Positions 61,626 to 64,000 of a stretch of 64,000 nucleotides of DNA are shown here, in pieces. Position numbers and translations under genes: made by a program. The notes beneath the pieces are model-generated. The model did not search any database and was not told the origin of the DNA. It was given only the letters and a program-made list of their open reading frames with translations. This DNA comes from Rickettsiales bacterium (GTDB taxonomy: Bacteria; Pseudomonadota; Alphaproteobacteria; Rickettsiales; JABCZZ01): NCBI GenBank assembly GCA_035765535.1, contig DASTXE010000005.1:137171-201170 (forward strand), given 5' to 3'. How positions within the stretch are numbered: position 1 is the stretch's first letter; each line of letters opens with the position of its first letter.

Positions 61626-61702
61626 CGGAGTGTAGCTCAGCCTGGTAGAGCACTACGTTCGGGACGTAGGGGCCGGAGGTTCGAATCCTCTCACTCCGAC
61701 CA
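61626..61702 (+). tRNA. tRNA-Pro (anticodon CGG)
   Basis: Hand-folded cloverleaf: acceptor CGGAGTG/CACTCCG, D arm GCTC..GAGC, anticodon arm CTACG-TTCGGGA-CGTAG, T arm GGAGG-TTCGAAT-CCTCT, encoded CCA. Confidence 0.9.
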
Positions 61703-61741
61703 TTTATTGGTCTCCCCGCTTTTCAATATTAGGTGTGGCAT

Positions 61742-62128
61742 ATGGAACAGGACGAGATTGCAATCCGGCAACTGGTGGCCACCTGGATGGAAGCCAGCAA
61801 ATCCGGCGATGTTCAGACCGTGCTCAGCCTCATGACGGACGATGTGGTATTCATGGTGCCGGGCGCGAAGCCTTTCGGCAAGGAAGCGTTTGCCGCTGCT
61901 TCGCAGGGCATGAAATCCATGAAGATGGACGGCAAGAGCGAAATACTGGAACTGGAAGTGCTGGGCGACTGGGCCTATGCGCGCAGCTTTATCGACATGA
62001 CCGTCACCCCGCCCAATGGCGACCCCATCCACCGCAACGGTCATACATTGACACTCTTTAAGAAAGACGTAGACGGGAAGTGGAAGCTCGCCCGCGATGC
62101 GAATATGCTTACGGTGGTGAAGGGGTAG
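61742..62128 (+). CDS. SnoaL-like / NTF2-fold (DUF4440-like) protein
   Basis: MEQDEIAIRQLVATWMEASKSGDVQTVLSLMTDDVVFMVPG is the usual opening of this fold. An AGGTG SD lies 6 nt before the ATG at 61742. Confidence 0.55.
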   Translation: MEQDEIAIRQLVATWMEASKSGDVQTVLSLMTDDVVFMVPGAKPFGKEAFAAASQGMKSMKMDGKSEILELEVLGDWAYARSFIDMTVTPPNGDPIHRNGHTLTLFKKDVDGKWKLARDANMLTVVKG

Positions 62129-62149
62129 AGCGCTACGTCCCGAACGTAG
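62124..62149 (+). repeat. 26-nt fragment derived from the D-arm/anticodon arm of tRNA-Pro
   Basis: GGTAGAGCGCTACGTCCCGAACGTAG compared with tRNA positions 61644-61669, GGTAGAGCACTACGTTCGGGACGTAG, is 22/26 identical in direct orientation. 62133-62149 is the exact reverse complement of the anticodon stem-loop 61653-61669. The fragment overlaps the SnoaL-like stop codon. Confidence 0.8.
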
Positions 62150-62152
62150 AAA

Positions 62153-62929
62153 CTAATCTTTTGGGGATAGAGCCAAAGCCTCTTCCATAGTCATCGCTCC
62201 CTTTCTGCAACGCTCGACAATCTCATCAAAGCTAGCTGTAGATTCTTTAAAATAACGAGAAAACCATCCCCATTTGGCTAACTTAATTAATTCGTCAGAT
62301 TTTTTATATTTATCAATATTGTGGGTTGTTAACTTAATGACCCAGTCTCGCCACCAAGAGGGGCATCGTATTAGTGTATCGTCTAGATAATCCAAGTGTA
62401 AAATCCCATCAAAGTCTTCCTTTATCATTTTCCCTACATACGCTTCGGCTGGAGCGGCTATTGGTAATACATCATCTGATACTACTATTCGGGGATAGAT
62501 TGCGACCTTGGATTCCATTTCGTATGCCCTATTAAGTCCTTCACCAAAAATAATGCCTTTATGGTGGTATATATTTCCAAGAGTTAAACTTCCTCGTAGA
62601 AGAAAACCATCACGCAAAGTTCGAATGATTAGTGAACCAACAATCTTTCTAAATTCCACAATTACCCAATCCAGAACCTTATGCTTCTTTAAAGGTGCGA
62701 TAGGATAAGAGACGACCAAATGATCAGAAAAGGTGCTAATTGCCGGGTTCATTTCTATCATATTTCCCGGAATTTCCTCAATTTGATACTCTCTTTTTAT
62801 GCCCGCTATAATTGTAAGCAACTCCTCAATTATATCGATTATCTCTTTATTGCTACGAATGGCATCTTTGAATCCGAGTAAATCTATATACAGGATAATA
62901 TGGTCTTGGTATTCTTCGGGAGAGGACAT
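62153..62929 (-). CDS. orphan AT-rich protein with a class III nucleotidyl-cyclase / GGDEF-type palm-like N-terminal domain and a Trp-rich C-terminal tail
   Basis: 258 aa. HIILYIDLLGFKDAI, AISTFSDHLVVSYP and FLLRGSLTLGNIYHHKGIIFGEGLNRAYEMESKVAIYPRIVVSDDV occur in the order and spacing of cyclase-homology-domain motifs. The start codon is 23 nt from the tRNA-Phe 3' end. Confidence 0.6.
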   Translation of the reverse strand: MSSPEEYQDHIILYIDLLGFKDAIRSNKEIIDIIEELLTIIAGIKREYQIEEIPGNMIEMNPAISTFSDHLVVSYPIAPLKKHKVLDWVIVEFRKIVGSLIIRTLRDGFLLRGSLTLGNIYHHKGIIFGEGLNRAYEMESKVAIYPRIVVSDDVLPIAAPAEAYVGKMIKEDFDGILHLDYLDDTLIRCPSWWRDWVIKLTTHNIDKYKKSDELIKLAKWGWFSRYFKESTASFDEIVERCRKGAMTMEEALALSPKD

Positions 62930-62952
62930 GCTATTTCATAGAAGCATTAAAA

Positions 62953-63028
62953 TGGTGCCCAGAGCCGGAATCGAACCAGCGACACAGGGATTTTCAGTCC
63001 CTTGCTCTACCAACTGAGCTATCTGGGC
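62953..63028 (-). tRNA. tRNA-Phe (anticodon GAA)
   Basis: The reverse complement reads GCCCAGATAGCTCAGTTGGTAGAGCAAGGGACTGAAAATCCCTGTGTCGCTGGTTCGATTCCGGCTCTGGGCACCA. The cloverleaf folds by hand and CCA is encoded. Confidence 0.9.
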
Positions 63029-63191
63029 ATTTCGCGAGCGCGCAGAGCCTTATAGGGTAAACTATTTTGTTTGTCTACAGGTTCCGTAGACAAATTTCGA
63101 CAATATCATGAAAATAAGGAATTCCGTTGCGGGGCATGGCGTTACACATGATCTGGCGGTGGAATCTGAGGGAACAACGTAATAACGCACG

Positions 63192-63237
63192 CCGGTGGCG
63201 CCGTGCCTCCCCATCTGGGGTGACGCGGCGCCGCCGG
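63192..63237 (-). terminator. long GC-rich hairpin downstream of the GC-rich ORF
   Basis: CCGGTGGCGCCGTGCCTCCCCA / TGGGGTGACGCGGCGCCGCCGG. About 18 Watson-Crick pairs plus 2 G-U of 22 positions. It lies inside the GC-rich block, 19 nt past the stop codon. Confidence 0.4.
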
Positions 63238-63255
63238 TTGAGATGTGCGACCCGA

Positions 63256-63660
63256 TCAGTCCTGACGCCGCCGGTCGTGCACAGCCAGCCACTCCTGGTT
63301 GCTGCTCCAGTCGTCCGGGATGCCGTCGAGGTACTCACGGTTGCTGCTCTCGATGTTGCTGAGAACCCGTTCGATGTACCTCGTGTACGCCCGCACGACG
63401 GAGGAGTGCTCGGTCGTGTAGAGGCCGGCGACCTCGTCGAGCGCGATGAACAGCTCGTCGCGGTCCAGCGCGCTGAACCTGATGCGCTCGTCGTAGACGG
63501 TCTCACCGCTGATGGGCTCGGTCACCATGATGTGGAGGCCGGGCAGCGGGCTGACCGTCGGCGGGGCGTAGGTGTGAACGTCGATCTGGAAGACGACGCC
63601 CCGGAACTCCACCACGTCAGCGTTGTCGGCAACGCGGTGGCGCCTGCGTGTCGTACTCAT
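63256..63660 (-). CDS. hypothetical protein encoded in a strongly GC-rich, GC3-biased block (foreign composition)
   Basis: 134 aa, MSTTRRRHRVADNADVVEFRGVVFQIDVH.... Codons end overwhelmingly in G/C in this frame. A GGAGG SD lies 7 nt upstream of the ATG. The competing ORFs in other frames are Arg/Ala/Pro-rich shadows. Confidence 0.6.
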   Translation of the reverse strand: MSTTRRRHRVADNADVVEFRGVVFQIDVHTYAPPTVSPLPGLHIMVTEPISGETVYDERIRFSALDRDELFIALDEVAGLYTTEHSSVVRAYTRYIERVLSNIESSNREYLDGIPDDWSSNQEWLAVHDRRRQD

Positions 63661-64000
63661 CTCACTACCTCCAGTGGGTAGACGGACCAGCTTGTTAGGC
63701 TGGCATAACAGTTCCCCGCAACAGACACGTCGTTGTGTTCGCTGCGATACTCCTGTGTTAGCAAGTATAAGTACGCCGAAACGTACTCGACTGGAAATGC
63801 AGACATATGCATTGCTGCACTGTTTCTACTTCCAGGGAACCTTGCCATATTAGCATATAATTGGTTAATTTTCTTATAAAGCCTTGAGAGTTACGCTTAA
63901 AGAAGCGCTAAAAATATTACTTATCAATATCTTCCAGTTAACAATAAGCTAAAATCGGTCGCTGGTATATTCCGACAGGGTGTGGCCGAGGGTTTTGGCT

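What the first reader, a model, noticed from the sequence alone, without database searches (positions are those of the whole stretch)
61626..63722. Convergent tRNA-Pro / tRNA-Phe pair forms a compositional mosaic hot spot without any visible integrase
About 2.1 kb contains, in order: tRNA-Pro(CGG) on the plus strand, a SnoaL-like gene of host-like composition, a 26-nt tRNA-Pro-derived fragment, and an AT-rich cyclase-like gene. Then come tRNA-Phe(GAA) on the minus strand and a roughly 0.6-kb block that is about two-thirds G+C by eye. Three different base compositions abutting two tRNA genes suggest repeated integration and decay events at tRNA attachment sites. No integrase, excisionase or transposase is present in the window. 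The window ends at 64000, so whatever lies beyond the GC-rich block is unseen; 63723-64000 is AT-rich and has no ORF in the provided track.
Basis: partly seen in the sequence, partly recalled or inferred. Interest (0 to 1): 0.65.

Follow-up and report, generated by a model that had tools for sequence, protein, structure and literature searches.

The report
Three foreign genes around two tRNAs
A 2-kb stretch bracketed by a proline and a phenylalanine tRNA gene holds three unrelated single genes of sharply different base composition, plus a 26-base scar copied from the proline tRNA; this is a real but fairly ordinary hot spot of gene gain in an uncultured alphaproteobacterium.

Summary
tRNA-Pro(CGG) and tRNA-Phe(GAA) are real and convergent. 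The window's lowest and highest 400-bp GC values (0.36 and 0.665) lie 650 bp apart on either side of tRNA-Phe. The 26-nt tRNA-Pro copy is real (none in 100 shuffles).

The locus is three unrelated one-gene modules:
- An SgcJ/EcaC SnoaL-fold gene of host-like composition.
- An AT-rich 258-aa protein with a confidently predicted class III nucleotidyl-cyclase fold. Its relatives sit on plasmids, in one phage protein family, and as solitary AT-rich genes elsewhere.
- A 0.6-kb unit with GC3 of 0.91, made of a leader, a fast-evolving 134-aa orphan ORF and a conserved 21-bp hairpin. It occurs in two other unrelated contexts.

In each case homology ends at the module's edges, and no relative elsewhere lies next to a tRNA.

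No integrase was found in the larger ORFs of the 20 kb upstream or among the called genes of the 2.7 kb recovered beyond the window. ispB–tRNA-Pro is deeply conserved; everything downstream differs even among the nearest relatives.

The "integration and decay" reading is partly supported. The anticodon-centred scar suggests one old integrase event at tRNA-Pro. The other two modules show no att trace. This is a new member of a known kind, of modest interest. The caveat is that this is a MAG contig.

The parts
60598..61596 (+). ispB (polyprenyl/octaprenyl diphosphate synthase), conserved left anchor of the locus
   Evidence: Pfam PF00348, E 1e-75. The ispB-tRNA-Pro(CGG) adjacency is kept in 22 of 40 distant alphaproteobacterial loci and in 6 of the 8 best metagenome loci scanned, including all five with IspB identity of 69-71%.
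61626..61702 (+). tRNA-Pro(CGG), intact
   Evidence: ARAGORN. Rfam RF00005, 65.5 bits.
61742..62128 (+). SnoaL-fold gene of the SgcJ/EcaC family (128 aa from the ATG at 61742; the ORF is open from a GTG at 61733), with host-like composition
   Evidence: TIGR02246, 81 bits against a cutoff of 33.95; DUF4440 and SnoaL_2. GC3 0.74 and tetranucleotide z about 0. The closest relative, L168, is 84% aa and 84.6% nt identical over 61751-62119 only; its flanks are unrelated.
62124..62149 (+). 26-nt copy of tRNA-Pro positions about 19-44 (D-arm 3' side plus anticodon arm). It matches 22/26 in direct orientation, and its 7-nt loop is the reverse complement of the tRNA's. It contains the SnoaL stop codon and ends 3 nt before the ORF258 stop codon.
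   Evidence: the repeat finder D5 and I2. Pattern expected 0.00 times in shuffles. The hairpin is weak, -6 kcal/mol with z about 0.3-0.6. The stem version CTACG/CGTAG is that of the window's own tRNA-Pro.
62153..62929 (-). ORF258: AT-rich solitary gene for a protein with a predicted class III nucleotidyl-cyclase-like fold and a C-terminal helical domain. It starts 23 nt after the 3' end of tRNA-Phe.
   Evidence: GC 0.38, GC3 0.35. AF2 pLDDT 90, pTM 0.87. The 50 Foldseek PDB hits listed are all class III cyclases or cyclase-like proteins. D16, D69, R112, G113 and R147 are invariant. phrog_23933, E 4e-22. There is no Pfam, PADLOC or NCBIfam hit.
62953..63028 (-). tRNA-Phe(GAA), intact, convergent with tRNA-Pro
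   Evidence: ARAGORN. Rfam, 72.3 bits. No tRNA-Phe lies within 10 kb of ispB in any of the 48 relatives' loci scanned for tRNAs.
63070..63095 (-). 11-bp-stem hairpin in the host-like spacer between the GC-rich module and tRNA-Phe. It may be the resident terminator of the upstream gene.
   Evidence: RNA fold -12.9 kcal/mol, z -4.6. The function is inferred.
63192..63237 (-). Conserved GC-rich hairpin (21-22-bp arms) closing the ORF134 module
   Evidence: -42.4 kcal/mol, z -5.3. Present in L083, L084 and L178. Of 21 pairs, 3 carry changes on both sides; the covariation score is above 500 of 500 shuffles.
63256..63660 (-). ORF134: orphan 134-aa ORF, GC 0.65, GC3 0.91
   Evidence: Only six real relatives were found, three by each of two searches covering about 15 billion proteins. 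dN/dS is 0.54-0.95 and indels are in multiples of 3. No hit passing threshold in any domain, family or structure library searched. AF2 pLDDT 52.
63661..63800 (-). Leader or promoter region of the ORF134 module. It contains the motif GGAGGTAGTGAG-ATG, identical in all four sequences examined, and a conserved CTTGCT..ACAG.AGTATCGC motif.
   Evidence: Alignments A1 and A5 with L083, L084 and L085. L178 carries the same Shine-Dalgarno motif. The 5' boundary is approximate.
63949..64000 (-). 3' end of a bPH_2 (PF03703) gene that continues beyond the window. It is the first gene of the right-hand host block: bPH_2, an ABC ATPase, a Zn_ribbon_4 protein and FolB.
   Evidence: Logan contig L002 is identical to window 62956-64000 and extends to 66706.

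Best explanation
The interval is a small insertion-tolerant variable region. It is wedged between a deeply conserved ispB-tRNA-Pro(CGG) unit on the left and a tRNA-Phe/bPH_2/ABC/FolB block on the right.

It holds three unrelated single-gene modules that were acquired separately:
- A SnoaL-fold SgcJ/EcaC gene placed directly 3' of tRNA-Pro.
- An AT-rich stand-alone gene with a class III cyclase fold, placed directly 3' of tRNA-Phe. Its family circulates on plasmids, in a phage protein family, and as solitary AT-rich genes in other chromosomes.
- A self-contained GC-rich transcription unit (leader, orphan ORF, conserved hairpin), inserted between bPH_2 and the tRNA-Phe promoter.

The junction between the first two modules keeps a 26-nt direct copy of the anticodon-arm region of tRNA-Pro. 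I read this as the damaged distal att scar of an integrative element that once entered tRNA-Pro at the anticodon loop. That element then lost its integrase and nearly all its cargo.

The other two modules carry no att trace. They most likely arrived by non-site-specific routes, such as recombination in flanking DNA or illegitimate insertion. They probably persisted because insertions at the ends of convergent transcription units next to tRNA genes do little harm.

Shown: the composition, the gene identities, the confinement of homology to each module, the fragment, and the lack of synteny downstream of tRNA-Pro. Inferred: the integrase event, the order of events, and co-transcription of SnoaL and ORF258 with the upstream tRNAs.
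For: **Composition.** The extremes coincide exactly with gene and module borders.

**SnoaL.** Its homology to the closest relative (84% aa) is limited to 61751-62119, and the flanks are unrelated.

**ORF258 family.**
- Members are solitary and AT-rich relative to their hosts: 0.37 against 0.55, and 0.32 against 0.46.
- They sit in four different chromosomal contexts, three of them housekeeping.
- Relatives occur on 68 plasmids, including one defence-island-like context.
- The family matches phrog_23933.

**ORF134 module.**
- It is found in two other unrelated contexts: between fliE and fliQ in one clade, and in a different setting in L178.
- GC3 is 0.90-0.93 everywhere, against flanks of 0.70-0.82.
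- It carries the same Shine-Dalgarno motif and a hairpin that covaries.

**Fragment.** 22/26 direct, expected 0 by chance, and centred on the anticodon arm. Anticodon-centred att sites are the majority class among mapped islands.

**Relatives.** ispB-tRNA-Pro is conserved, but the downstream content differs in each of the closest relatives:
- L092: metK directly.
- L089: DAO plus a sulfotransferase, then metK.
- L088: a low-GC 694-aa ORF.

**Assembly.** Both main compositional junctions lie inside single Logan contigs that are identical to the window.
Against: **No recombinase.** No integrase, excisionase or transposase was found in the Pfam-scanned ORFs of the 20 kb upstream or among the called genes of the 2.7 kb downstream.

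**The fragment is atypical.**
- It covers tRNA positions about 19-44, whereas a displaced fragment normally runs to the tRNA 3' end.
- Its loop is the exact reverse complement of the tRNA loop, which simple recombination does not produce.
- The putative island is only about 420 bp and is flush with the SnoaL coding sequence on both sides.

**No general tRNA link.**
- Relatives of all three genes elsewhere are not next to tRNAs.
- tRNA-Phe has no repeat.

**No decisive comparison was possible.**
- The closest genomes share only 62-71% IspB identity, so no true presence/absence test could be made.
- The joins across both tRNAs rest on the MAG assembly alone, because Logan contigs break inside both tRNA genes.
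Confidence: 0.55

Rival explanations
1. Pure permissive-site model. No tRNA-targeting integrase was ever involved. All three modules entered by non-site-specific means into a tolerated gap between convergent transcription units. The 26-nt tRNA-Pro copy arose locally, for example by template switching across the palindromic anticodon arm during repair or replication.
For: - There is no integrase and no tRNA-Phe repeat.
- The loop of the fragment is exactly inverted, as hairpin-mediated template switching would produce.
- The fragment lacks the tRNA 3' half.
- Homologues of the three genes elsewhere sit in non-tRNA sites, often tightly between convergent genes.
Against: - A direct copy 480 bp downstream that includes 8 nt of the D-arm outside the palindrome is not what a simple hairpin inversion yields.
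- Its position at a module junction, and its centring on the commonest integrase crossover site, fit an att scar.
Confidence: 0.25
2. Metagenome assembly chimera. Segments from different organisms were joined through the conserved tRNA sequences, so the mosaic does not exist in any one genome.
For: - The window is a MAG contig.
- The k=31 Logan contigs from the run that also yields the window sequence end inside tRNA-Pro (61654 and 61673) and tRNA-Phe (62956 and 62985). Those tRNA k-mers therefore have more than one continuation in the sample.
Against: - The SnoaL/ORF258 junction and the junction between the ORF134 module and the host genes each lie inside a single Logan contig identical to the window.
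- The 1.3-kb middle contig is bounded by the 3' parts of a tRNA-Pro and a tRNA-Phe in convergent orientation, exactly as the flanks require.
- GC-rich and AT-rich modules are also compositional outliers in their other hosts, so a mosaic is expected wherever they sit.
Confidence: 0.08
3. The pieces form one functional unit: a tRNA-linked defence or regulatory locus. In it the cyclase-fold protein, the anticodon-arm mimic and ORF134 work together.
For: - The cyclase fold is shared with Pycsar-type cyclases, including the uridylate cyclase 8jsz.
- One plasmid relative sits among AbiEii and AAA-ATPase/UvrD genes.
- ORF258 abuts a tRNA on one side and a tRNA-arm copy on the other.
Against: - The three genes never co-occur elsewhere, and ORF258 relatives have no constant neighbour and no nearby tRNA.
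- PADLOC gives no hit.
- The tRNA-arm hairpin is thermodynamically unremarkable.
Confidence: 0.05
4. All three genes are native, and their odd composition reflects gene-specific constraints rather than foreign origin.
For: - SnoaL is compositionally host-like.
- No mobility genes are present.
Against: - GC3 of 0.35 and 0.91 stands beside neighbours at 0.54-0.72.
- Both families are outliers in other hosts too, and their distribution is patchy and very sparse.
- None of the three genes was detected in any of the 160 relatives' loci around ispB.
Confidence: 0.03

Closest known systems
Genomic islands integrated in tRNA genes (Islander-type, anticodon-centred att class A; PMC4383910; Williams 2002, NAR 30:866, listed in that paper's references; the mechanism described under 'Same' is from my own knowledge)
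   Same: An intact tRNA gene is followed by foreign DNA. The foreign DNA ends at a directly oriented partial copy of the same tRNA, centred on the anticodon arm.
   Different: - There is no integrase.
- The delimited DNA is about 0.4 kb, a single gene.
- The fragment lacks the tRNA 3' half.
- Its loop is reverse-complemented.
- The two other foreign modules have no att repeats, and one lies 5' of its tRNA.
Phage 'morons' (autonomous single-gene transcription units of deviant composition inserted between resident genes; Hendrix and colleagues, cited from my own knowledge)
   Same: The ORF134 module is a self-contained unit: a leader with its own Shine-Dalgarno motif, one ORF and a closing hairpin. 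Its GC3 is far from its neighbours', and it is inserted into intergenic spacers in three unrelated contexts.
   Different: - It is found in chromosomal housekeeping or flagellar contexts, not in recognisable prophages.
- The hairpin has no T-run.
- There is no hit in phage collections.
Class III nucleotidyl cyclases, including Pycsar PycC cyclases
   Same: The predicted fold of ORF258 matches. Two invariant Asp residues lie in DLLGF and FSD motifs, at the places where class III cyclases carry their metal-binding Asp. An RG...G...FG...A...E..YPRIVVS stretch resembles the C-terminal half of the cyclase homology domain.
   Different: - No member of the family reaches any Pfam model, PF00211 included.
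- There is no PADLOC hit.
- There is no adjacent effector gene.
- A roughly 90-residue C-terminal helical domain is added.
- Activity is untested.
Integron gene cassettes (ORF plus attC hairpin)
   Same: One ORF is followed by a conserved imperfect hairpin, and the unit appears in different contexts.
   Different: - No RYYYAAC / GTTRRRY core sites flank the hairpin (read from the sequences).
- There is no integron integrase.
- The module carries its own leader.
- The hairpin, at 46 nt, is shorter than known attC sites.

Membership tests
tRNA-integrated genomic island (Islander criteria) | Intact tRNA gene plus a displaced fragment of the same tRNA, in the same orientation, marking the far end | tested here: inconclusive
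   A 26-nt direct copy (22/26) lies 480 bp downstream. However, it covers only positions about 19-44, lacks the 3' half, and its loop is inverted.
tRNA-integrated genomic island (Islander criteria) | Tyrosine integrase gene inside the delimited DNA | tested here: not met
   The delimited DNA holds only the SnoaL gene. No integrase domain appears in the Pfam-scanned ORFs of the 20 kb upstream or among the called genes of the 2.7 kb downstream.
tRNA-integrated genomic island (Islander criteria) | Presence/absence polymorphism among close relatives | not testable with these tools
   The closest available loci share only 62-71% IspB identity. They show a variable 3' flank of tRNA-Pro but are too distant for an empty-site comparison.
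SgcJ/EcaC (TIGR02246) SnoaL-fold proteins | Score above the NCBIfam cutoff and full-length match | tested here: met
   81 bits against a cutoff of 33.95, residues 7-126 of 131. Pfam DUF4440 and SnoaL_2 also score above their cutoffs.
Class III nucleotidyl cyclase (cyclase homology domain, Pfam PF00211) | Sequence match to the family model | tested here: not met
   None of the 20 family members matches PF00211 at E of 1 or better; only scattered single-member chance matches to unrelated families appear. The profile search against PDB sequences gives only E 0.4 to an adenylate cyclase.
Class III nucleotidyl cyclase (cyclase homology domain, Pfam PF00211) | Cyclase homology domain fold | tested here: met
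   The AF2 model has pLDDT 90 and pTM 0.87. The 50 Foldseek PDB matches listed are all class III cyclases or cyclase-like proteins, with best E 3e-5 and TM 0.5-0.59 normalised to the target.
Class III nucleotidyl cyclase (cyclase homology domain, Pfam PF00211) | Two metal-binding aspartates and catalytic activity | tested here: inconclusive
   D16 and D69 are invariant in 20 sequences, in motifs analogous to the cyclase metal-binding sites.
Pycsar (cyclase plus effector anti-phage system) | PycC-type cyclase next to a TM or TIR effector gene | tested here: not met
   There is no PADLOC hit. The neighbours are tRNA-Phe and a convergent SnoaL gene. Homologues elsewhere have no constant neighbour.
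Integron gene cassette | attC site with RYYYAAC...GTTRRRY cores, and an IntI integrase nearby | tested here: not met
   The sequences flanking the hairpin in the window, L083 and L178 lack the core motifs. No integrase was found.
Transposon or MITE-like element (for the ORF134 module) | Conserved terminal inverted repeats and target-site duplication | tested here: not met
   A 12-nt inverted repeat flanks the GC-rich core in the window (63123-63134 and 63714-63725). It is absent from L083, so it is probably chance.

The most novel reading that the evidence does not exclude
The 0.6-kb GC-rich unit (leader, fast-evolving 134-aa orphan ORF, covarying 21-bp hairpin) may be a previously undescribed minimal mobile cassette. 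It would spread between alphaproteobacterial chromosomes without a recombinase of its own, using the conserved hairpin as the site recognised in trans, as attC or REP hairpins are. On this reading the hairpin is not merely a terminator carried along with the gene. A second, separate possibility is that the ORF258 family is a new stand-alone cyclase-fold anti-phage gene.
Probability: 0.1. Interest if true: 0.6.

Novelty: new member of a known kind. Interest (0 to 1): 0.3.

Why it matters
The locus shows, in a lineage with no close sequenced relatives, how the flanks of tRNA genes collect single foreign genes even when no recombinase remains. That is a useful caution for island finders that require an integrase and a 3' tRNA fragment.

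It also brings out two uncharacterised families:
- A protein family with a class III cyclase fold and no Pfam model, scattered over plasmids, a phage protein family and chromosomes.
- A very rare orphan gene that travels with its own leader and a structurally conserved hairpin.

Neither changes current understanding. Both are cheap to test.

Tried and rejected
**Classical att repeats**
- I looked for att repeats of tRNA-Phe and 3'-terminal repeats of tRNA-Pro. None was found.

**Recombinases**
- I looked for integrases or transposases in the larger ORFs of the 20 kb upstream and among the called genes beyond the window end. None was found.

**ORF134 and ORF258 function**
- Defence-system models (PADLOC) gave no hit for either protein.
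- The ORF134 structure prediction had pLDDT 52, so no fold search was attempted.
- An exhaustive HMM search for ORF134 found only two more real relatives. Three long repetitive proteins that also scored were spurious.
- Phage records, IMG/VR and plasmids gave nothing for ORF134.
- For ORF258 there was nothing in phage records by tblastn and one marginal IMG/VR hit.

**ORF134 module as a mobile element**
- Read as an integron cassette or a TIR element: rejected, because it has no core sites and no conserved terminal repeats.

**tRNA-like hairpin**
- Read as a bidirectional terminator: the fold is no better than shuffled sequence, and the terminator scan found nothing.

**Synteny**
- The synteny test with 160 loci around ispB is informative only for ispB-tRNA-Pro. 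Nothing downstream is shared.

**Unavailable**

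
Full report
**Source and surroundings**

Exact protein matches identify the window as part of a 225,893-bp contig of a MAG annotated 'Rickettsiales bacterium'. The locus tags are VFT64_08500 and VFT64_08510.

Three contigs from the Logan assembly of run SRR25158471 are identical to the window:
- L177 corresponds to the window up to 61654.
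- L001 corresponds to 61673-62985.
- L002 corresponds to 62956-66706.

L002 shows what lies beyond base 64000: a bPH_2 gene, an ABC ATPase, a Zn_ribbon_4 protein and FolB. No recombinase is present.

Upstream lie ispB, an NTP-transferase, OmpW, a DsbD-like gene and the cbb3 oxidase cluster with fixGH. Again there is no recombinase.

Both tRNAs are real.

Composition was computed rather than judged by eye, and it is not flat. The lowest 400-nt GC value of the whole window (0.36 at 62551) and the highest (0.665 at 63201) both lie in this locus, 650 bp apart on either side of tRNA-Phe. Each is about 3.5 sd from the mean.

GC3 values:

| Gene | GC3 |
|---|---|
| ORF258 | 0.35 |
| ORF134 | 0.91 |
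| SnoaL | 0.74 |
| Neighbouring genes | 0.54-0.72 |

Tetranucleotide distance gives z about 0 for SnoaL, +3.9 for the ORF258 block and +6.3 for the ORF134 block. The last is the largest in the window.

The 26-nt tRNA-Pro copy at 62124-62149 matches 22/26 in direct orientation. The pattern is expected 0.00 times in shuffles.

**Anatomy of the tRNA-Pro fragment**

The fragment corresponds to tRNA positions about 19-44: the D-arm 3' side GGTAGAGC followed by the anticodon arm.
- The two stem strands match exactly.
- The 7-nt loop (TCCCGAA) is the exact reverse complement of the tRNA's loop (TTCGGGA). The 17-nt arm is therefore a 17/17 match in the inverted sense, while the 8-nt D-arm extension matches only in the direct sense.
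- Its stem version (CTACG/CGTAG) is the one used by this genome's own tRNA-Pro. It is one of at least 16 versions seen among the alphaproteobacterial loci fetched.

The fragment sits precisely between the two convergent genes. The SnoaL stop codon (62126-62128) lies inside it, and the ORF258 stop codon begins 3 nt after it.

As an RNA hairpin it is unremarkable, at -6 kcal/mol with z about 0.3-0.6. No terminator-like site was found in the region.

**Module 1: SnoaL**

The gene is a full-length SgcJ/EcaC (TIGR02246) protein. It belongs to a very large family; more than 3,000 homologues were found. Many of the best matches are 64-70% identical, among them proteins from Rhizobium, Mesorhizobium and Paraburkholderia.

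The closest relative, L168, is 84% aa and 84.6% nt identical. It aligns only over 61751-62119. Its flanks are unrelated, it has no tRNA, and it sits behind a second SnoaL paralogue. The last two codons and the stop codon of the window's gene come from the sequence at the fragment.

**Module 2: ORF258**

No Pfam, NCBIfam or PADLOC model matches it. No member of its 20-sequence family matches the cyclase model PF00211; a few members give only weak chance matches to unrelated families.

With that alignment AlphaFold gives a confident model, pLDDT 90 and pTM 0.87. The 50 Foldseek PDB matches listed are all class III adenylyl, guanylyl or uridylyl cyclases or cyclase-like proteins. The invariant residues D16 (DLLGF), D69 (FSD), R112-G113 and P146-R147 lie in motifs that resemble the cyclase homology domain. 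Activity is untested.

The family looks mobile:
- It matches phrog_23933 at E 4e-22.
- Distant relatives occur on 68 plasmids of Bacillus, Acinetobacter, Rhizobium, Agrobacterium and others.
- One relative lies among AbiEii, PP2C and AAA-ATPase/UvrD genes.

Chromosomal relatives are solitary and AT-rich relative to their hosts: 0.37 against 0.55, and 0.32 against 0.46. They lie in different contexts with no constant neighbour and no tRNA nearby.

In the window the gene starts 23 nt after the 3' end of tRNA-Phe, on the same strand. That leaves no room for its own promoter, so co-transcription with the tRNA is inferred.

**Module 3: ORF134 unit**

The family is extremely small. A word-seeded search of the full collection of about 15 billion proteins found three relatives (P0023-P0025). 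An exhaustive HMM scan of its 1.8 billion cluster representatives found three more (P0026, P0028 and its cluster-mate P0151). That makes six real relatives in all.

Three of the relatives come from one clade. L083, L084 and L085 are 84-93% identical to each other, flanks included. In that clade the unit lies between fliE and fliQ-fliR-flhB. A third context, L178, has unrelated flanks and a host GC of 0.61.

Shared features in all contexts:
- GC3 is 0.90-0.93 everywhere, against 0.70-0.82 in the flanks.
- Nucleotide similarity to the window (72-75%) covers a leader with the invariant GGAGGTAGTGAG-ATG, the ORF, and a hairpin about 20-45 nt after the stop codon. It ends there.
- The hairpin is very stable, -42 to -51 kcal/mol with z below -5.
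- The hairpin keeps 21 pairs. Three pairs show compensatory double changes, and the covariation score is above all 500 shuffles. This rests on only four sequences.

The ORF evolves fast, with dN/dS 0.54-0.95. It stays open, and its indels are in multiples of three.

No family, phage, plasmid or solved-structure match passing threshold exists. The AlphaFold model is unusable.

The unit has no attC-type core sites and no conserved terminal repeats. It is best described as a self-contained, moron-like transcription unit of high-GC origin. In the window it lies between bPH_2 and the tRNA-Phe promoter region, that is, 5' of the tRNA. A separate hairpin at 63070-63095 in the host-like spacer may be the resident terminator.

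**Comparison with relatives**

No close relative exists in the collections. The best IspB identity is 62% among GTDB species representatives and 71% in metagenomes.

The ispB-tRNA-Pro(CGG) adjacency is deeply conserved:
- 22 of 40 distant loci have it on the same strand within 350 nt.
- So do 6 of the 8 best metagenome loci scanned, including all five with IspB identity of 69-71%.
- None of the 48 loci scanned for tRNAs has a tRNA-Phe within 10 kb.

Downstream content differs even among the three closest loci that extend beyond tRNA-Pro:
- L092: metK directly.
- L089: an oxidoreductase and a sulfotransferase, then metK.
- L088: a low-GC 694-aa ORF of unknown function.

None of the 160 loci contains SnoaL, ORF258 or ORF134. 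The refutation condition 'same gene order and content conserved across distant relatives' is therefore not met. The 3' flank of tRNA-Pro behaves as a variable site.

**Interpretation**

Separate acquisition of three one-gene modules is well supported.

The integrase-and-decay scenario is supported only for tRNA-Pro, and only by the 26-nt fragment. The fragment is centred where most tRNA-targeting integrases cross over: 2083 of 3919 mapped islands have anticodon-centred sites (PMC4383910). But it is truncated on its 3' side, its loop is inverted, and it delimits only 0.4 kb.

For ORF258 and the ORF134 unit there is no att trace, and their relatives elsewhere do not use tRNA sites. Non-site-specific insertion into a tolerated gap is the simpler account.

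**Caveat**

Logan contigs break inside both tRNA genes, so the links across them rest on the MAG assembly. However, both main compositional junctions lie inside single contigs.

**Verdict**

The feature is real and was correctly observed. It is a small, integrase-less cluster of foreign single genes at a tRNA pair: a new member of a known kind, with two uncharacterised families as by-products. Interest is 0.3.

Noticed in passing
window 42309-44246 (-), especially 43101-43900: A 645-aa ORF with no Pfam hit contains the window's second strongest GC and tetranucleotide outlier (GC up to 0.64).
   Followed up: no
window 700-850 and 49750-49900: Two further low-GC spots (0.375-0.39 in 400-nt windows). 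The second lies at the 5' end of an unannotated 490-aa ORF at 48425-49897 (-).
   Followed up: no
L171, L172, L173 (whole loci): The genomes that host the ORF258 homologue P0006 have fragmented gene calls for trpA, trpB, rpsA and aroA. This suggests a lineage undergoing gene decay.
   Followed up: no
L176 1-10672 (Agrobacterium fabrum plasmid pAt1D132a): A distant ORF258 relative lies between AbiEii-toxin, PP2C and DUF6615 genes on one side and an AAA-ATPase plus UvrD-helicase pair on the other. This neighbourhood resembles a defence island.
   Followed up: partly
L168 2-534: The closest SnoaL homologue is the second of two tandem SnoaL-fold genes. The upstream partial ORF is 44% identical to the C-terminal part of the window's SnoaL protein.
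   Followed up: partly
window 61626-61702 and L003-L167: The ispB-tRNA-Pro(CGG) adjacency is conserved across very distant Alphaproteobacteria (IspB identity 55-62%). In four loci (L017, L020, L024, L027) 1.3-2.3 kb separate the two genes.
   Followed up: partly
window 61654/61673 and 62956/62985: The Logan k=31 contigs of SRR25158471 end inside both tRNA genes. These tRNA k-mers therefore have more than one continuation in the sample, from extra gene copies, other organisms or strain variants of this locus.
   Followed up: partly
window 63123-63134 and 63714-63725: A 12-nt inverted repeat (11 of 12 complementary) brackets the GC-rich core. It is not conserved in L083, so it is probably chance.
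   Followed up: yes
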